Made by a program: the position numbers and the translations under genes. Below the pieces are notes generated by a model. The model saw only the letters and a list, made by a program, of their open reading frames with translations. It searched no databases and was not told the origin of the DNA. Of a DNA stretch of 64,000 nt, positions 12 to 31,813 are shown piece by piece. Numbering within the stretch: the first letter of the stretch is position 1; every line of letters starts with the position of its first letter. The stretch is from Candidatus Dojkabacteria bacterium (GTDB taxonomy: Bacteria > Patescibacteriota > Dojkabacteria > GCA-002793355): positions 1,024,221 through 1,088,220 of the forward strand of contig CP129477.1 in NCBI GenBank assembly GCA_030583825.1, in the 5' to 3' direction.

Positions 12-2892
<2,881 letters not shown>

Positions 2893-11972: not shown

Positions 11973-12740
11973 TTAACTTTGATTTTTTAGACTTCGCAGA
12001 AGATCCTTCATTTTTGCGGTATGTAGCCAACGAGTCGGTGGTGTTCCTGTAACAGGTGTTCCGTTAAAATTTCCTTTTAACTTTCCAGCAACTGCTAGAT
12101 TAATAGCATACTGCTCTTCACTTAGTGCATTATACGCATCTTTTTGCATTGCAATTATTTGTCCATGACTATTGCTGAAAAATGAGTCAACAATCGTTCC
12201 TAACCTCACCTTTTCAAGCTCGAAAAGTTTATGAAGGTATTTTCGTCCAAATAACTTCTCCAATCCTAAAACACCTGACCACTTTGGCTTACTCGCAGTG
12301 CTTGGAAAAGTGAATATCACTTCGAATCCCATTCTAAAAGGAGAAATATAATCCAGATTGAGAAACTTTTCTTTAATTTGTAAGTCTTTTCCGTACAAAT
12401 TAATATATTCCAACTCTCGTAATACTTTCCAGAACCTGTGCTCAAGCCCCTTTTCTTCATACGCGTAGTAAATATCTTTCCATACAGAGTGTGGTGCAGG
12501 ATTTCCTGCAACAATCAACAAAGAAGGCTTTTCGCTTGCGACCTCGGGAACCCAAGATTTGTGTGGATAGGTAATAATATTTCCTTTTCGAAATAAAACG
12601 TGTTGATTTGTTTCATCGGAAGTATAAAAATCCTCCCATTTTTCGTCAAAACGCTGTAGCTCTGCCGGTGTAGGATATAGCAGATTAAGATCGAGTGTAC
12701 ATTCATAACTTCCTAATCCAATTTTGTGAAAGGATAACAT
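11973..12740 (-). CDS. hypothetical protein (255 aa)
   Basis: I recognise no secure family. A weak VAGNPAPHS stretch is reminiscent of UDG-superfamily motif A but is not convincing. Confidence 0.3.
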   Translation of the reverse strand: MLSFHKIGLGSYECTLDLNLLYPTPAELQRFDEKWEDFYTSDETNQHVLFRKGNIITYPHKSWVPEVASEKPSLLIVAGNPAPHSVWKDIYYAYEEKGLEHRFWKVLRELEYINLYGKDLQIKEKFLNLDYISPFRMGFEVIFTFPSTASKPKWSGVLGLEKLFGRKYLHKLFELEKVRLGTIVDSFFSNSHGQIIAMQKDAYNALSEEQYAINLAVAGKLKGNFNGTPVTGTPPTRWLHTAKMKDLLRSLKNQS

Positions 12741-12751
12741 TTATTATTGTA

Positions 12752-13186
12752 TCACTGCCGAGTTTCAAGGAGTTCAACTGTGGGTAGCAAATATGTAATG
12801 CGAGAATCATTATGAATCAGCCCTTTTATCTCGTTAAGAGTAAACCATTTTACTTCATCTTGGCCATCAAGTGGCTGCGCTTTTCCGGACAAATATTCTG
12901 CTAGAAAAGTTAACGACACGACATGGTGGCCACTACTTCGGATAAAACCGCTTGTTGTCAGAAGCTGTATAGAATCTTTTATTTTTACTCCGGCTTCTTC
13001 CTCAGCTTCTCGGGCTAATGTACTTTCAATAATTCCGTGACCAGTTTCGAAATCAACTTTTCCTCCAATAAAGCTCCATGTCCCTCCTGCCTGATCATCA
13101 TTACTTGCTCGCAATCCGAGTAAATACTTATCTTCCTTTTTAATAATCGCTGAAACTAAAACAACATGTAACGGCATCTCTTCCAT
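12752..13186 (-). CDS. NUDIX hydrolase
   Basis: 144 aa with a canonical Nudix box GGKVDFETGHGIIESTLAREAEEEAGV. Confidence 0.75.
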   Translation of the reverse strand: MEEMPLHVVLVSAIIKKEDKYLLGLRASNDDQAGGTWSFIGGKVDFETGHGIIESTLAREAEEEAGVKIKDSIQLLTTSGFIRSSGHHVVSLTFLAEYLSGKAQPLDGQDEVKWFTLNEIKGLIHNDSRITYLLPTVELLETRQ

Positions 13187-13213
13187 AACTTGTAAGAATA
13201 AATTTATGATAAA

Positions 13214-13223
13214 CCCATATGGG
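13214..13223. promoter_or_regulatory. perfect 10-bp palindrome CCCATATGGG in the divergent NUDIX / wHTH-Nudix intergenic region
   Basis: Read directly from the sequence. It is a candidate operator for the adjacent wHTH protein. Confidence 0.25.
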
Positions 13224-13303
13224 CTTTATTAAACTACTTTTACATTAAGCTATCCCCGATGTGACTGAAGAGGCCTTCGGTAAATAGTACGTTATAATTA
13301 TGA

Positions 13304-13987
13304 ATGCTACACAAGACTCAGTTGCAAATACTCGAATCTCTCTTATTTTTGCAAGAGGCAAGGTTTCAGGAACTAAATATAAAGCAGATGCCTACAGATC
13401 AATTTAATTTTCATATCAAACAACTACGAAAGCTGGGATATATTCAAGTTGAAAACCGCGCGTATTCACTAACTGATCTTGGAAAAGACTTTGCCGGTAG
13501 AATTGATACCAAGTCACACAGGTATACGATACAACCGAAAATTGGTGTTTGTTTATTTGTTTTTCAGAAAATAGGGAATGAAAAGCTTATCCTTTTAGGG
13601 AAACGGCTGAAAGATCAGTCAAAGGGCTTATGGGGGCCGTTTTCAGAGAAAGTTCACATATATGAGCCTATCGAGAACACAATTGTACGATGCCTAACTA
13701 CTGAAACGGGATTAACACCACTCTCGTGGGACTTTGCAGGAGTACACCGTTATATGAGTTCTAGCGTTGACGTTATTTTGCAATGCTTTCTTGTAACTCA
13801 TTATTCGGGGCAACTTCTAAGTGTAACTTCTGAGTCCGAAAACAGCTGGATTCCTCTTAGTAAAATTGGAGAAATGAACACATTTCTTGGGTTAACAGAA
13901 ATATTGGAAAACATAGAAACGTCAGAAAAATTCTTTTTTGAGGTTACATCTCTGGCTCTAGACCAAACGCCAGCGCAAGATCAATAG
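13304..13987 (+). CDS. winged-helix DNA-binding domain fused to a Nudix-fold domain with a degenerate Nudix box (putative ligand-sensing regulator)
   Basis: 227 aa. The N-terminus, QILESLLF...FNFHIKQLRKLGYIQ, looks like a wHTH. The C-terminal Nudix-like stretch GPFSEKVHIYEPIENTIVRCLTTETGL lacks the REx2EE glutamates. It is a clear paralog of 31124..31813. Confidence 0.5.
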   Translation: MLHKTQLQILESLLFLQEARFQELNIKQMPTDQFNFHIKQLRKLGYIQVENRAYSLTDLGKDFAGRIDTKSHRYTIQPKIGVCLFVFQKIGNEKLILLGKRLKDQSKGLWGPFSEKVHIYEPIENTIVRCLTTETGLTPLSWDFAGVHRYMSSSVDVILQCFLVTHYSGQLLSVTSESENSWIPLSKIGEMNTFLGLTEILENIETSEKFFFEVTSLALDQTPAQDQ

Positions 13988-14405
13988 GAAGCTTATAATC
14001 TGCAATCCAGACTCGCCTGTCAAACTTTTCAATTCTAATGCCTTTAGGAAGCTTTTCTGGCTCTGCTAATTCCATAACTGTGACATACTTCTTGTCCTGC
14101 ACTTTCTCAAACATTTCTCGTGCATGAGCTTCGTCTCTTAATCCTACGCGAGGCTGAATTGATAGAAGAAGATCAAGAAGTTCCAGTGTATCTTCTATTT
14201 CATAAGATTTTGCAGAGATTATTTTCACTCTACCCACAACTGGGCCACTAGATTCTTTTATATACATGATATCTCCAGGAGTTACTTTATTGTACGGAGC
14301 AATTCTCTTGTAACTAAGCTTGATATCAACTGTTTTTGTGCCGTCAAAAATCATGTTTATATAATCACGGCTTTTCTTTTTGTTGTATATGGTAAGGTGA
14401 TTCAT
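13944..14405 (-). CDS. ASCH (PUA-like) domain protein
   Basis: 153 aa. IFDGTKTVDIKL...PGDIMYIKE resembles the GxKxxExR / beta-barrel ASCH signature. It overlaps the upstream gene convergently by 44 nt. Confidence 0.45.
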   Translation of the reverse strand: MNHLTIYNKKKSRDYINMIFDGTKTVDIKLSYKRIAPYNKVTPGDIMYIKESSGPVVGRVKIISAKSYEIEDTLELLDLLLSIQPRVGLRDEAHAREMFEKVQDKKYVTVMELAEPEKLPKGIRIEKFDRRVWIADYKLPIDLALAFGLEPEM

Positions 14406-14438
14406 ACTCTCAATCTATTTTACAATACGTCAGTAGAT

Positions 14439-15398
14439 CTATAAACCCAAAGAGAGTCTCTGTTTATTTTTCATTGTTCCCATACCGATTATCCAGCCTT
14501 CTTCTGTAATGCAATCTATTTGCTCTTTATGGGAAAGCCCTTCAGGAACTCCTAACAATGATAAAAGTCCATCCTCCATATCGTTTTTGTGAAGCCAATT
14601 AACTGTCGCACGAACCTGGGCTTGATCTTTTATTATTGAACTGTCTAGTGTGCCTGAAAAAATGCCCGGCCAGATTTCTATATGTAAAATAAGTGGTTGA
14701 TTGCTCGTAACAGGAGCCACGAAGCCTGTTTCAAATGGCCAGATTTGAGAATACTTTTCTAAGAATGGATGGAATCGAAGTTTATGTATAGCAGGAATTC
14801 CTACTAAGGTCTGCCCACCTACACTTGCACTGCCAATAAGTTTCCATACCGGCTGAGCTTTTGACTCTCTCATTTCTGTCCAGCGAAATTTTCGCAAAAT
14901 ATGCCCAGTTCTTGTGTGGTATGGGTATCTAGGACTTTTTGGACTAAGATATTCTAACTTAGTATTAACAGGGCATCCCCATAGCGGGCCATAATTGGTT
15001 GAACCACTCAAGAGGGAGTTTAAATATGCAGCAACTTCAAAACGATTATTGGAATTATCAGGATTATCAATTATTAATTTAGAAAGTTTGTTCCATAGTA
15101 ATCTCCATTTTGGAAACTTACCACGAAGATCAAGTGCATCAATAAACCCTGCTGGAAATCCGAAATCTAAATCATATCCAACTATAATCCTTTCTTTATT
15201 AGTAACAGCTGAACTTAAAAGTGGTAATAAATATTCTATACATTCAAATCTTGTACGAAAATAGCTCTCTTTTTGAATGCCATTTTTATCTTTTTCACCT
15301 ACCCAGATTGCGTCATGCGATGGTTTTGCAGCACTTGGAGCACTTCGCGCGCTCCAATCAACAGCAATATATTTATCAAACAACATTTCTACAGTCAC
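14439..15398 (-). CDS. hypothetical protein (319 aa)
   Basis: No family recognised. The N-terminus, KYIAVDWSARSAP, is faintly RNase-H-fold-like. Confidence 0.3.
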   Translation of the reverse strand: MTVEMLFDKYIAVDWSARSAPSAAKPSHDAIWVGEKDKNGIQKESYFRTRFECIEYLLPLLSSAVTNKERIIVGYDLDFGFPAGFIDALDLRGKFPKWRLLWNKLSKLIIDNPDNSNNRFEVAAYLNSLLSGSTNYGPLWGCPVNTKLEYLSPKSPRYPYHTRTGHILRKFRWTEMRESKAQPVWKLIGSASVGGQTLVGIPAIHKLRFHPFLEKYSQIWPFETGFVAPVTSNQPLILHIEIWPGIFSGTLDSSIIKDQAQVRATVNWLHKNDMEDGLLSLLGVPEGLSHKEQIDCITEEGWIIGMGTMKNKQRLSLGL

Positions 15399-15493
15399 TA
15401 ATAGTTATTAAAGAATGATAATTGAAAAGGTAAGAAAATGATACTGAAATTGATTTCACGAAGAGAATTGTTTACTTTTGAGGAAAATATCTG

Positions 15494-15516
15494 GCGGGGT
15501 TGACGGGGCTCGGTCA
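15494..15516 (-). repeat. degenerate partial copy of the 3' end of tRNA-Asp (19/19-nt identity plus a decayed upstream portion)
   Basis: gcggggttgacggggctcg occurs at 15498-15516 and again at 15672-15690, the latter inside the intact tRNA-Asp. Upstream of the first copy, the sequence resembles the tRNA anticodon/variable region but carries a 3-nt insertion and mismatches, so it cannot fold as a tRNA. Confidence 0.45.
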
Positions 15517-15613
15517 CCTCGCATCCTTACCCTGCCTGATAGGTATGCTCCTCGACCCCATTCCGCTCATTTCGAACAGTAATCGTACTGTTCTCATTCG
15601 GGTTTCTACGCCC

Positions 15614-15670
15614 CCAATAAATAAATTAGGGTCTCTTACCGTCCTTAGCAGAACGACACGAGACCCTAAG
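15614..15670 (-). terminator. intrinsic terminator downstream of tRNA-Asp (minus strand)
   Basis: 10-bp stem ttagggtctc / gagaccctaa with a 24-nt loop, followed on the minus strand by uuuauuuauu. Confidence 0.55.
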
Positions 15671-15745
15671 CGGGGTTGACGGGGCTCGAACCCGCAGCCT
15701 TCCGCGTGACAGGCGGATGCTCTAACCAAATTGAGCTACAACCCC
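15671..15745 (-). tRNA. tRNA-Asp (anticodon GTC)
   Basis: Cloverleaf read by hand from the minus strand: GGGGTTG ta GCTC aatttggtta GAGC a TCCGC cTGTCAc GCGGA aggct GCGGG ttcgagc CCCGT CAACCCC g. No encoded CCA. Confidence 0.85.
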
Positions 15746-31070: not shown

Positions 31071-31090
31071 TAGTGAAACTAATTTCACTA
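31071..31090. promoter_or_regulatory. inverted repeat TAGTGAAA-n4-TTTCACTA upstream of the wHTH-Nudix paralog
   Basis: Read from the sequence. It lies in the divergent intergenic region between the peptidase and 31124..31813. Confidence 0.25.
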
Positions 31091-31123
31091 GATTCTCACC
31101 CCTTACCAGATTATACTTATTAC

Positions 31124-31813
31124 ATGACACATCTTCACCAAATACAAATGAAAATTTTGCGAGAGCTTTTGTTCCACCCAAAATCGAGATTCACCGATTT
31201 GAATATCTCTGGATTGTCGTCAGATCATTTTAGCTATCATATGCGAGAGCTCAAAAAGCTAGGACTGGTAGACAAAATCGAAGATACATACATTCTGAGC
31301 CACGATGGCAAAGAATTTGCAAATAGGATGGACACAGATAAAAATATTATGGAAAAGCAGCCAAAAGTTTCGGTTGTTATTTGTCCAGAACTTGAAATTA
31401 ACGGAGTAAAACATTACGCGGTACAAACACGCTTGAAAGAGCCTTATTATGGATATAATGGTTTTATAACAGGAAAAGTACGCTTTGGAGAAAAGATTGT
31501 CGAAGCAGCCGCTCGAGAACTTCTTGAAGAAATGGGTATAACCGCAACATTTACCCCAATGTACGTTCTCCATGAAATGGTGTACAACATGTCTGGTAAC
31601 ATGCTGGAAGATAAGTTTTTCCACGCAGTACTTGCCACAAATGTTAAAGGAAAACTCGTAACCGAAATTGAGGGTGGAAAAAATAGATGGGTCACCAAAA
31701 AAGAATTTGAAGAAATGGCCCCCAAGTATCACAACGAAGACGATATCTTTGCATGGTTCGATGCCAGAAAATATGAATTCATAGAGGAAACGTATTTTAT
31801 AGAATCGTTTTAA
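31124..31813 (+). CDS. winged-helix DNA-binding domain fused to a NUDIX hydrolase domain with an intact Nudix box (paralog of 13304..13987)
   Basis: The track ORF starts at 31073, but Met-18 at 31124 aligns with the paralog's start. The N-terminus, MKILRELLF...FSYHMRELKKLGLV, looks like a wHTH. The Nudix box GKVRFGEKIVEAAARELLEEMGI is intact. Confidence 0.55.
   Translation: MTHLHQIQMKILRELLFHPKSRFTDLNISGLSSDHFSYHMRELKKLGLVDKIEDTYILSHDGKEFANRMDTDKNIMEKQPKVSVVICPELEINGVKHYAVQTRLKEPYYGYNGFITGKVRFGEKIVEAAARELLEEMGITATFTPMYVLHEMVYNMSGNMLEDKFFHAVLATNVKGKLVTEIEGGKNRWVTKKEFEEMAPKYHNEDDIFAWFDARKYEFIEETYFIESF

What the first reader, a model, noticed from the sequence alone, without database searches (positions are those of the whole stretch)
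13187..13987. wHTH-Nudix-fold fusion with a degenerate Nudix box, divergent from a canonical NUDIX hydrolase, with a perfect palindrome between them
The 227-aa protein has an N-terminal winged-helix domain and a C-terminal Nudix-fold segment. Its Nudix box has lost the REx2EE glutamates (EKVHIYEPIENTIVRCLTTETGL), so it is probably a ligand-binding regulator rather than a hydrolase. It is transcribed divergently from a canonical NUDIX hydrolase (12752..13186). The perfect palindrome CCCATATGGG lies in the 117-bp intergenic region. The domain order, HTH then Nudix, is the reverse of the described NrtR regulators. A clear paralog exists at 31124..31813.
Basis: partly seen in the sequence, partly recalled or inferred. 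Interest (0 to 1): 0.6.

Follow-up and report, generated by a model that had tools for sequence, protein, structure and literature searches.

The report
Winged-helix regulator with a dead Nudix domain

Summary
ORF 13304..13987 (227 aa) has an N-terminal winged helix and a C-terminal Nudix fold (Pfam 25.8 bits; AF2 pLDDT 89.5; Foldseek MTH1 E 2e-11). Its box, EKVHIYEPIENTIVRCLTTETGL, has lost the first Gly and two of the three REx2EE Glu. It is divergent from a MutT/NudG-like NUDIX gene. The paralog (31124..31813, 31% identity) keeps an intact box.

New findings:
- The protein belongs to a Patescibacteria-wide wHTH-Nudix family (920 clusters; 224 GTDB loci).
- 72 of 79 family genes carry the palindrome TAGTGAAr-N4-yTTCACTA at their promoter, which suggests autoregulation.
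- The half-site co-varies with recognition-helix residues.
- The "degenerate" box (R-C-L-x-x-E-T-G-L) marks a near-monophyletic subclade rather than decay (dN/dS 0.20).
- In 9 loci this subclade is linked to orthologs of the neighbouring NUDIX gene, with the palindrome in front of that gene or in the shared intergenic region in five of them.

CCCATATGGG is not supported as the operator. Such palindromes are common here (0.12 expected per 117 bp), and it is absent from the 55%-identity ortholog locus. What is conserved is ACTGAAG-AGGC-CTTCGGT (13264-13281), 12 nt before a TATAAT. No evidence points to ADP-ribose or NAD.

Verdict: a new, domain-swapped analogue of NrtR-type regulators. The effector is unknown.

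The parts
13304..13987 (+). wHTH-Nudix protein of the 'RC' subclade (227 aa)
   Evidence: ORF. Pfam NUDIX 25.8 bits. AF2 pLDDT 89.5. Orthologs P0001 (92% identity) and P0002 (55%). dN/dS 0.20 against L002.
13304..13531 (+). N-terminal winged-helix domain (residues 1-76); recognition helix ...PTDQFNFHIKQLRK...
   Evidence: DSSP of the AF2 model. Weak Pfam and NCBIfam winged-helix hits. Family profile against PDB finds AspA/ArsR/HxlR at E about 2e-3.
13535..13948 (+). Nudix-fold domain (residues 78-215), MTH1/MutT-like
   Evidence: Foldseek PDB E 2.4e-11, TMt 0.76-0.83. phmmer PDB hit 2b06 at E 2.7e-5.
13646..13714 (+). Altered Nudix box EKVHIYEPIENTIVRCLTTETGL (G->E, RE->RC, EE->TE); Cys130 codon at 13691-13693
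   Evidence: Read from the sequence. About 32 clusters in the tabulated set share Cys at this position, and Cys130 is at least 90% conserved in the 31-sequence RC alignment.
13264..13281 (.). Candidate operator: imperfect inverted repeat ACTGAAG-AGGC-CTTCGGT, a variant of the family palindrome
   Evidence: Conserved block TGTGACTGAAGA..CTTCGGT.AAT shared by the window and L001, while the rest of the intergenic region has diverged. It has 2 mismatches to the family consensus. The left arm CTGAAG matches the half-site class seen with DQF-x-FH recognition helices.
13293..13298 (+). TATAAT -10-like box, 12 nt after the repeat and 5 nt before the ATG (a leaderless-type arrangement)
   Evidence: Read from the sequence. 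The same box and spacing occur in L001 and similar ones in L111. The consensus promoter scan found no full -35/-10 pair here.
13214..13223 (.).
   Evidence: Single exact copy in the window. Expected 0.12 such palindromes per 117 bp. Absent from L001.
12752..13186 (-). Partner NUDIX hydrolase (144 aa, MutT/NudG-like, intact REAEEE)
   Evidence: Pfam 54.9 bits. PDB hits MutT 3hhj at E 7e-9 and CTP pyrophosphohydrolase 2rrk. Orthologs lie next to RC-subclade genes in L001, L002, L086, L089, L098, L102, L111, L112 and L114.
11973..12740 (-). UDG-superfamily-fold protein (255 aa), 11 nt downstream of the NUDIX gene; probable operon partner
   Evidence: AF2 pLDDT 95.2. The top 30 Foldseek PDB hits are all TDG/MUG/UDG/UdgX, best E 3e-4. 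No Pfam hit.
31124..31813 (+). Paralog with an intact Nudix box (GKVRFGEKIVEAAARELLEEMGI), a member of the main 'RE' family
   Evidence: BLASTP 31% identity, E 3e-28. 432 homologs, mostly Dojkabacteria.
31072..31089 (.). Consensus family palindrome AGTGAAACTAATTTCACT, 23 nt before TATACT and 6 nt further to the paralog's ATG
   Evidence: Best PWM hit in the window, score 25.3. Zero mismatches to the consensus. Sequence read.
15443..15460 (.). Second consensus-type palindrome (CTGAAATTGATTTCAC), 23 nt before TATCAT, upstream of ORF 14439..15398 and the ASCH-like ORF 13944..14405
   Evidence: PWM score 15.0. One mismatch to the consensus. Sequence read.

Best explanation
ORF 13304..13987 encodes a one-component transcription regulator from a family found across Patescibacteria. 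The family has an N-terminal ArsR/PadR-like winged helix and a C-terminal MutT/MTH1-like Nudix domain.

Family members probably bind, as dimers, a palindrome (TAGTGAAr-N4-yTTCACTA) at their own promoter. This protein belongs to a subclade in which the Nudix box is rewritten to x-K-V-x3-E-x7-R-C-L-x-x-E-T-G-L. Two metal-binding or catalytic Glu and the first Gly are lost. Inferred: the Nudix domain no longer hydrolyses efficiently and acts as a nucleotide-sensing module.

Inferred: the protein binds the variant palindrome ACTGAAG-AGGC-CTTCGGT (13264-13281). This lies over the -35 region of its own TATAAT promoter and 78 nt upstream of the divergent NUDIX gene. From there it would repress itself and control the NUDIX (MutT/NudG-like) plus UDG-fold operon. 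Binding of a non-canonical or damaged nucleotide, possibly the substrate or product of the partner hydrolase, would release it.

Shown: fold, box changes, subclade conservation, gene linkage, palindrome conservation and helix/half-site co-variation.
Inferred: DNA binding by this protein, repression rather than activation, loss of catalysis, and the identity of the effector.
For: 1. Architecture and fold.

2. Family size. A profile search finds 920 clusters at E<=1e-3. 224 loci in GTDB species-representative genomes span Dojka-, Sacchari-, Shapiro-, Woese-, Davies-, Lipton-, Gracilibacteria and others.

3. Palindrome. 72 of 79 family loci have the 16-bp palindrome 50-97 nt upstream of the gene in all but one locus (L062, 124 nt), at a fixed distance of about 23 nt from a -10-like box. 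At PWM score >=16 only 15 further sites occur in 647 kb of loci, and about 10 of those lie in RC-subclade loci.

4. Co-variation of recognition helix and half-site:
- xYH goes with GTGAAA.
- DHF-(N/S)-FH goes with GTAAAG.
- DQF-x-FH goes with (C/G)TGAAG.
In this one genome the paralog (DHFSYH) sits behind GTGAAA..TTTCAC, and the target (DQFNFH) sits behind CTGAAG..CTTCGG.

5. The RC box is a clade signature. About 32 clusters share it. Cys130 is at least 90% conserved. An NJ clade of 33 sequences has 28 RC members and no canonical RE members. dN/dS is 0.20.

6. Linkage to the small NUDIX gene:
- Divergent in L001, L002, L089, L102 and L111.
- Tandem downstream in L086, L098 and L112.
- 1.3 kb away in L114.
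The family palindrome lies directly upstream of that NUDIX gene in L086, L098 and L112, and in the shared intergenic region in L089 and L102.

7. The IR, the TATAAT box and their 12-nt spacing are conserved between the window and L001. The rest of the intergenic region is not. L111 has the same short-spacing layout.

8. Precedent: NrtR proteins with perturbed Nudix signatures lack activity and bind a ligand (PMC2330246).
Against: - No experiment exists; DNA binding is inferred.
- The target's repeat fails the family PWM. Its right arm reads CGG where 69-70 of 70 sites read CAC.
- A consensus match with 2 mismatches is not rare by itself: 33 in the window against 25 in shuffles, about 0.06 per 117 bp.
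- 7-4-7 repeats with at least 6 of 7 complementary positions occur 0.21 times per 117 bp.
- Conservation of the variant rests on only two independent loci (window/L002 and L001).
- The helix/half-site co-variation is confounded by phylogeny.
- E121, R129 and E134 are retained, so residual hydrolysis cannot be excluded.
- The operator position in most family members (centre about -43.5, abutting a weak -35) would also fit activation.
- The consensus scan found no sigma-70-type promoter in the intergenic region.
- The effector is unknown. Some RC-subclade genes are linked to a pyruvate-kinase-barrel-like gene instead of the NUDIX gene.
Confidence: 0.55

Rival explanations
1. Bifunctional enzyme-repressor. 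The protein is still an active, if unusual, Nudix hydrolase and also autoregulates through its winged helix, as NadR or BirA do, or as NrtR members with intact signatures may.
For: E121 (GX5E), R129, E134 and the G-L end of the box are retained. The main family, including the paralog, keeps a perfect Nudix box alongside the same winged helix and palindrome, so enzyme plus regulator is the likely ancestral state.
Against: The positions equivalent to the first and second REUXEE glutamates are Cys and Thr, and the first Gly is Glu. Other invariant residues of the main family have also been replaced (KEPYYGY, HE.VY, LEDKFF). A perturbed signature in Slr1690 lowered kcat about 600-fold (PMC2330246). 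A separate canonical NUDIX gene is kept next door in 9 loci.
Confidence: 0.2
2. Partner or decoy. The RC protein does not act alone on DNA. It heterodimerises with the intact-box paralog through the Nudix domains, or competes for the paralog's sites, and so tunes that paralog's regulon.
For: Both paralogs are encoded in one genome and share 31% identity over both domains. Consensus palindromes, which fit the paralog better, lie within 1.5 kb of the target at 15443-15460. In L086, L089, L098, L102 and L112 the NUDIX partner carries a consensus-type palindrome, not a variant one.
Against: The recognition helix is conserved and differs from the paralog's in a way that matches the adjacent half-site. 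The variant repeat next to the target is conserved in L001.
Confidence: 0.1
3. CCCATATGGG (13214-13223) is the operator, and ADP-ribose or NAD metabolites are the effectors, as in NrtR.
For: A perfect 10-bp palindrome exists in the divergent intergenic region. It falls in the spacer of a weak possible NUDIX promoter, judged by reading. It is intact in L002.
Against: It is absent from L001. The window holds 67 such palindromes, so 0.12 are expected per 117 bp. L002 is 97-98% identical across this whole segment, so its conservation carries no information. CCCATATGGG bears no relation to the palindrome found at 72 of 79 family promoters. The Nudix domain is MTH1/MutT-like, and no NAD genes are adjacent.
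Confidence: 0.06
4. The conserved inverted repeat is an RNA hairpin in a 5' leader, or the site of an unrelated regulator such as a neighbouring MarR- or HxlR-type protein. On this view the wHTH-Nudix protein is simply an enzyme paralog.
For: Symmetric changes in the two arms would also look like stem co-variation. MarR or HxlR genes lie nearby in the window, L089 and L102.
Against: The repeat sits at a fixed distance of about 23 nt upstream of -10-like boxes, so it is probably not transcribed. In 30 of 70 sites the outer arm positions are C/C and cannot pair. The arm sequence tracks residues of this family's recognition helix. The repeat follows the wHTH-Nudix gene across many phyla, whatever the neighbouring genes are.
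Confidence: 0.05

Closest known systems
NrtR (Nudix-related transcriptional regulators; Rodionov et al. 2008, PMC2330246)
   Same: Both fuse a Nudix-fold effector domain to a winged-helix DNA-binding domain. In both, the Nudix signature is often perturbed and catalysis lost, a palindromic operator sits at the promoter, autoregulation is common, and the genes lie next to the pathway they control.
   Different: - The domain order is reversed (wHTH N-terminal here).
- No NrtR-type winged-helix family appears in the Pfam scan.
- The Nudix domain is closest to MTH1/MutT/NudG rather than to ADP-ribose pyrophosphatases.
- The operator is GTGAAr-N4-yTTCAC, not the 21-bp GT-N7-AC core.
- The neighbours are nucleotide-sanitation and base-excision-type genes, not NAD genes.
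- The family is restricted to Patescibacteria in the searches done.
It is therefore an independent, analogous fusion.
Enzyme-repressor fusions such as NadR (HTH + NMN adenylyltransferase/RN kinase) and BirA
   Same: An N-terminal HTH is fused to a nucleotide-handling enzyme domain that also reads the metabolic signal. The intact-box paralog and the main family fit this pattern.
   Different: The enzyme fold is different. In the target's subclade the enzyme appears to have been retired, with a separate hydrolase gene kept alongside.
MutT / MTH1 / NudG-type Nudix NTP pyrophosphohydrolases
   Same: Best structural matches (E 2e-11, TMt about 0.8) and best sequence matches for the C-terminal domain. 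The partner gene at 12752..13186 is a normal member of this group.
   Different: The target lacks the first Gly and two Glu of GX5EX7REUXEEXGU, and it carries an extra 76-residue winged helix.
ArsR/PadR-like small winged-helix proteins (AspA, 1y0u ArsR-type, HxlR)
   Same: These are the best, though weak, profile matches for residues 1-70 (E about 2e-3). The a1-a2-a3-hairpin layout is the same.
   Different: Similarity is marginal and below family thresholds. There are no metal-site or PadR C-terminal features.

Membership tests
NrtR family | N-terminal Nudix-like domain followed by a C-terminal winged helix | tested here: not met
   The winged helix is residues 1-76 and the Nudix fold residues 78-215. 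NrtR definition read.
NrtR family | Nudix domain most similar to ADP-ribose pyrophosphatases; ADP-ribose as effector | tested here: inconclusive
   The top 20 Foldseek hits are MTH1, and the NrtR Nudix domain (3gz8) appears at rank 21 with a similar E. The best NCBIfam hits are NudG and MutT models, all below cutoff. Ligand binding cannot be tested here.
NrtR family | 21-bp palindromic operator with a GT-N7-AC core, near NAD-metabolism genes | tested here: not met
   The family operator is GTGAAr-N4-yTTCAC. The neighbours are NUDIX, a UDG-fold protein, an ASCH-like protein, MarR and an ABC transporter.
NrtR family | Perturbed Nudix signature | tested here: met
   E-x5-E-x7-R-C-L-T-T-E-T-G-L.
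Nudix superfamily (PF00293) | Nudix a/b/a fold | tested here: met
   Pfam 25.8 bits against a cutoff of 21.1. Foldseek E 2.4e-11.
Nudix superfamily (PF00293) | Catalytic Nudix box GX5EX7REUXEEXGU | tested here: not met
   G->E, RE->RC and EE->TE. E121, R129, E134, G136 and L137 are kept.
Patescibacterial wHTH-Nudix family (unnamed; PF24038/PF14947-like wHTH + PF00293, about 230 aa) | Full-length homology over both domains, with the conserved motifs LN..D(H/Q)F.(Y/F)H..L and G.(E/D)(F)A.R(I/M)DT | tested here: met
   31% identity, E 3e-28 to the paralog over 195 aa. Alignments A2 and A4. The profile search returns the family.
Patescibacterial wHTH-Nudix family (unnamed; PF24038/PF14947-like wHTH + PF00293, about 230 aa) | GTGAAr-N4-yTTCAC palindrome at the gene's own promoter | tested here: inconclusive
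   A variant, ACTGAAG-AGGC-CTTCGGT, is present. It has 2 mismatches to the consensus, scores below the PWM threshold and has 12-nt rather than 23-nt spacing to the -10 box. It is conserved in L001.
'RC' subclade of that family | Box x-K-V-x3-E-x7-R-C-L-x-x-E-T-G-L with Cys replacing the first REUXEE Glu | tested here: met
   An NJ clade of 33 sequences has 28 RC and 0 RE members.
'RC' subclade of that family | Linkage to a small MutT/NudG-like NUDIX gene | tested here: met
   Divergent neighbour at 12752..13186. Orthologs are linked in 9 loci.

The most novel reading that the evidence does not exclude
The near-invariant Cys that replaces the catalytic Glu in this subclade (Cys130), together with the semi-conserved Cys161, may turn a former 8-oxo-dGTPase-like pocket into a thiol- or damaged-nucleotide-based sensor. 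If so, these minimal-genome bacteria would use a retired MutT-type enzyme as the sensor of a previously unknown oxidative or nucleotide-damage regulon. Candidate members are the MutT/NudG-like hydrolase, the UDG-fold protein, and the OGG or HhH-GPD glycosylases found next to family members in L089, L102 and L116. The whole wHTH-Nudix family would then be one of the few broadly conserved transcription-factor families of the candidate phyla radiation, with a readable operator code.
Probability: 0.12. Interest if true: 0.8.

Novelty: new variant of a known kind. Interest (0 to 1): 0.6.

Why it matters
Almost nothing is known about gene regulation in Patescibacteria (the candidate phyla radiation). 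Their genomes are small and encode few recognisable regulators.

This analysis points to a family present in hundreds of species. It has a clear operator, a promoter geometry and an apparent recognition-helix/half-site code, so its regulons can be predicted directly from genomes.

The target adds an evolutionary case. After duplication, one copy of an enzyme-regulator fusion lost its catalytic residues in a fixed, conserved way and stayed linked to a stand-alone hydrolase and DNA-glycosylase-type genes. This parallels NrtR but arose independently, with the opposite domain order. It therefore gives a second, independent example of a Nudix enzyme becoming a ligand sensor.

Tried and rejected
- Searching for close relatives of the target by protein patterns in genome contigs and metagenome contigs found nothing.
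A hand-made degenerate DNA pattern for K-[VI]-x3-E-x7-R-C-L-x2-E-T-G then recovered 18 true RC loci among 33 hits.
- The sigma-70 consensus scan found no promoter in the 117-bp intergenic region. Promoter statements therefore rest on -10-like boxes read by eye and on their conserved spacing.
- CCCATATGGG as operator was rejected.
- High conservation of the intergenic region against L002 was considered as evidence of constraint and rejected. The flanking NUDIX gene is equally conserved at 98%, so the pattern is regional mosaicism.
- A defence-system role was checked. PADLOC gave only generic Nudix and winged-helix similarity.
- The Sulfolobus Nudix paper states that its four Nudix proteins have no HTH domain.
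- Literature searches for Patescibacteria or Saccharibacteria with Nudix and regulator terms returned nothing.
Full report
**1. What is at the coordinates**

- ORF 13304..13987 (+) encodes 227 aa. It is divergent from ORF 12752..13186 (-), 144 aa, across a 117-bp intergenic region.
- Pfam places a NUDIX domain on residues 80-188 of the 227-aa protein (25.8 bits, cutoff 21.1). The neighbour scores 54.9 bits.
- The N-terminal 70 residues give only sub-threshold winged-helix hits: DUF7347 at E 2e-3, HTH_45 and Sso10a.
- An AlphaFold2 model built on a 58-sequence alignment is confident (pLDDT 89.5, pTM 0.74). It shows a1-a2-a3-b-hairpin, then a Nudix sandwich.
- Foldseek against PDB returns MTH1/MutT-type Nudix enzymes (E 2.4e-11, TMt about 0.8). 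The NrtR Nudix domain appears at rank 21. Every alignment covers only about 145 columns, which is the Nudix half.
- A profile of the N-terminal region from 37 family members weakly hits AspA, an ArsR-type repressor and an HxlR-family factor in PDB (E about 2e-3).
- Against GX5EX7REUXEEXGU, the box EKVHIYEPIENTIVRCLTTETGL (nt 13646-13714) has G->E, RE->RC and EE->TE. E121, R129, E134, G136 and L137 remain.
- The paralog at 31124..31813 is real (31% identity over 195 aa, E 3e-28). It has a textbook box, GKVRFGEKIVEAAARELLEEMGI.
- CCCATATGGG lies at 13214-13223.

**2. The family**

- The target itself has only two close relatives in the word-indexed database: P0001 (92%) and P0002 (55%).
- The paralog has 432 relatives. 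Those that carry a source name are Candidatus Dojkabacteria 'NUDIX domain-containing protein'.
- An exhaustive profile search found 920 clusters at E<=1e-3 and 380 at E<=1e-10.
- A pattern scan of GTDB species-representative genomes confirmed 224 loci. These span Dojkabacteria, Saccharibacteria, Shapiro-, Woese-, Davies-, Lipton-, Sungi-, Gracilibacteria and Paceibacterota.
- The organism in the window is therefore a patescibacterium, most likely a Dojkabacteria relative. This is inferred from best hits only.

**3. The 'degenerate' box is a clade signature**

- I tabulated the box for the aligned family sequences of at least 180 aa from both searches. 191 have R-E..E-E, and about 32 have Cys in place of the first Glu. 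The Cys form usually reads x-K-V-x3-E-x7-R-C-L-x-x-E-T-G-L, with the first Gly replaced by E/T/S/R/Q.
- In a 31-sequence alignment of these, Cys130, E121, E134 and G136 are each at least 90% conserved.
- Motifs that are invariant in the main family (KEPYYGY, HE.VY, LEDKFF) are replaced.
- In a neighbour-joining tree the target sits in a clade of 33 sequences, of which 28 are RC-type and none is canonical.
- dN/dS between the window and L002 is 0.20.
- This is a maintained functional shift, not decay.

**4. A family-wide palindrome**

- I extracted the upstream regions of 79 loci of the main family. 72 carry a 16-bp palindrome. Typical forms are:
  - TAGTGAAATCAATTTCACTAGA in Dojkabacteria.
  - TACTAAAGTCGACTTTACT in Saccharibacteria.
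  - AGTGAAGTCCGCTTCACTAGA in other lineages.
- The palindrome abuts a T(A/T)GA -35-like element. It ends about 23 nt before a -10-like box (read).
- With a PWM built from these sites, the best hit in the 64-kb window is 31071-31092, directly upstream of the paralog (score 25.3).
- The second hit is 15440-15461 (score 15.0). It lies 23 nt before TATCAT, upstream of ORF 14439..15398 plus the ASCH-like ORF.
- Across 647 kb of fetched loci, only 15 sites with score >=16 lie outside the family genes' own promoters. About 10 of them are in RC-subclade loci.

**5. Helix/half-site co-variation**

- Recognition helices with x-Y-H go with GTGAAA/TTTCAC.
- D-H-F-(N/S)-F-H goes with GTAAAG/CTTTAC (24 of 27).
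- D-(Q/K)-F-x-F-H goes with (C/G)TGAAG/CTTCAC (7 of 7).
- This is confounded by phylogeny.
- Within this single genome, however, the two paralogs obey the rule. The paralog (SSDHFSYH) sits behind GTGAAA-CTAA-TTTCAC. The target (PTDQFNFH) sits behind CTGAAG-AGGC-CTTCGG.

**6. The target's own intergenic region**

- Aligning the window, L002 and L001 shows one conserved block, TGTGACTGAAGA...CTTCGGT.AAT, followed by TATAAT. The rest, including the CCCATATGGG position, is not conserved in L001.
- The repeat ACTGAAG-AGGC-CTTCGGT (13264-13281) has a consensus left arm. Its right arm reads CGG where the family has CAC.
- It has 2 mismatches to the degenerate consensus, which by itself is expected about 0.06 times per 117 bp.
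- It ends 12 nt, not 23 nt, before TATAAT (13293-13298). That box is 5 nt from the ATG.
- L001 has the same spacing, and L111, another RC locus with a divergent NUDIX gene, has a similar one.
- This places the repeat over the -35 region, which favours repression (inference).
- CCCATATGGG is not statistically unusual. The window has 67 perfect 10-bp palindromes, giving 0.12 per 117 bp.
- Its conservation in L002 is uninformative, because the whole NUDIX-intergenic segment is 97-98% identical there.

**7. Linkage**

- A degenerate DNA pattern for the RC box recovered 13 full-length and 5 partial RC genes from metagenomes.
- tblastn shows orthologs of the window's 144-aa NUDIX protein (35-58% identity) next to RC genes in nine loci:
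  - Divergent in L001, L002, L089, L102 and L111.
  - Tandem downstream in L086, L098 and L112.
  - 1.3 kb away in L114.
- The family palindrome lies immediately upstream of that NUDIX gene in L086, L098 and L112. It lies in the shared intergenic region in L089 and L102.
- The NUDIX partner is MutT/NudG-like.
- In the window it is followed after 11 nt by a 255-aa protein with no Pfam hit. Its AF2 model (pLDDT 95.2) matches only UDG-superfamily glycosylases (TDG, MUG, UDG, UdgX) in its top 30 hits.
- HhH-GPD glycosylase genes flank the NUDIX partner in L089 and L102 (Pfam hit for L102; by reading the ORF for L089). A third intact-box paralog is in an operon with OGG in L116.
- Other RC genes follow a pyruvate-kinase-barrel-like gene instead. 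The biological theme is therefore suggestive of nucleotide sanitation and base excision, but not uniform.

**8. Mechanism proposed**

- The protein would bind 13264-13281 as a dimer. It would repress its own leaderless-type promoter and control the divergent NUDIX and UDG-fold operon.
- The Nudix domain can probably no longer hydrolyse efficiently. It would bind a nucleotide and release the DNA.
- Shown: fold, box changes, clade conservation, linkage, palindrome conservation and co-variation.
- Inferred: binding by this protein, the sign of regulation, catalytic loss and the effector.
- Overall confidence is 0.55. The rival explanations and their weights are listed separately.

**9. Comparison with what is known**

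- NrtR is the closest concept (Nudix-like effector plus winged helix, perturbed signatures, palindromic operators; PMC2330246). Membership fails on domain order, operator type and gene context, and the affinity of the Nudix domain is MutT/MTH1-like.
- The main family resembles enzyme-repressor fusions such as NadR.
- I found no paper describing this family.
- I class it as a new variant of a known kind: an independent, domain-swapped Nudix-related regulator family, with the target in a pseudo-enzyme subclade.

Noticed in passing
window 15494-15512 and 15670-15688: An exact 19-nt copy of the 3' end of tRNA-Asp (15670-15745, minus strand) lies 176 nt downstream of the tRNA. This looks like an att-type duplication left by an integration or excision event, with only 157 nt between the copies.
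   Followed up: partly
window 15443-15460, upstream of ORFs 14439..15398 and 13944..14405: A consensus-type family palindrome (CTGAAATTGATTTCAC) lies 23 nt before TATCAT and 16 nt further to the GTG start. It precedes a 319-aa protein (NCBIfam PRK14495 'unknown domain', E 1e-44; no Pfam hit) and an ASCH-like protein. This is probably a regulon member of the intact-box paralog.
   Followed up: partly
window 11973-12740 (-): A 255-aa 'hypothetical' protein with no Pfam hit has a confident UDG-superfamily (TDG/MUG-like) fold and a GNPAPHS motif. It has 72 homologs in the database search, all unannotated. It may be an undescribed UDG family.
   Followed up: partly
L116 1085-2652 (Dojkabacteria contig): A third wHTH-Nudix paralog (236 aa, intact box) lies immediately upstream of an OGG_N/HhH-GPD 8-oxoguanine glycosylase gene on the same strand. 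It is 2.3 kb from the main-family gene.
   Followed up: partly
L083 8505-9727, L095 987-2210, L114 322-1569: In three loci the RC-subclade gene follows a pyruvate-kinase-barrel-like gene on the same strand. In L083 and L095 the family palindrome lies upstream of that gene.
   Followed up: partly
window 13293-13306 and 31112-31126; several Dojkabacteria loci (L008, L012, L021, L035): -10-like boxes lie only 5-7 nt before the start codon, with no Shine-Dalgarno sequence. This suggests leaderless mRNAs for these regulators.
   Followed up: no
window 13944-13987: The 3' end of the target overlaps the 3' end of the convergent ASCH-like ORF by 44 nt. The overlapping C-terminal tail of the target is unstructured in the model (pLDDT below 50) and absent from the P0002 ortholog.
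   Followed up: no
window 12810-15530 compared with L002: Nucleotide identity to a related strain is mosaic: NUDIX 98%, intergenic 97%, target 92%, ASCH-like 97%, 319-aa ORF 92%. This suggests recombination or uneven evolutionary rates.
   Followed up: partly
window 1007-2892 compared with L001 1089-2971: In L001, tRNA-guanine transglycosylase and FmrO-type genes directly flank the NUDIX/regulator pair. In the window, ORFs of matching sizes (369 and 262 aa) lie about 10 kb away, so the intervening segment (ABC transporters, MarR, UDG-fold gene) may be an insertion or rearrangement. Homology of these ORFs to the L001 genes was not checked.
   Followed up: no
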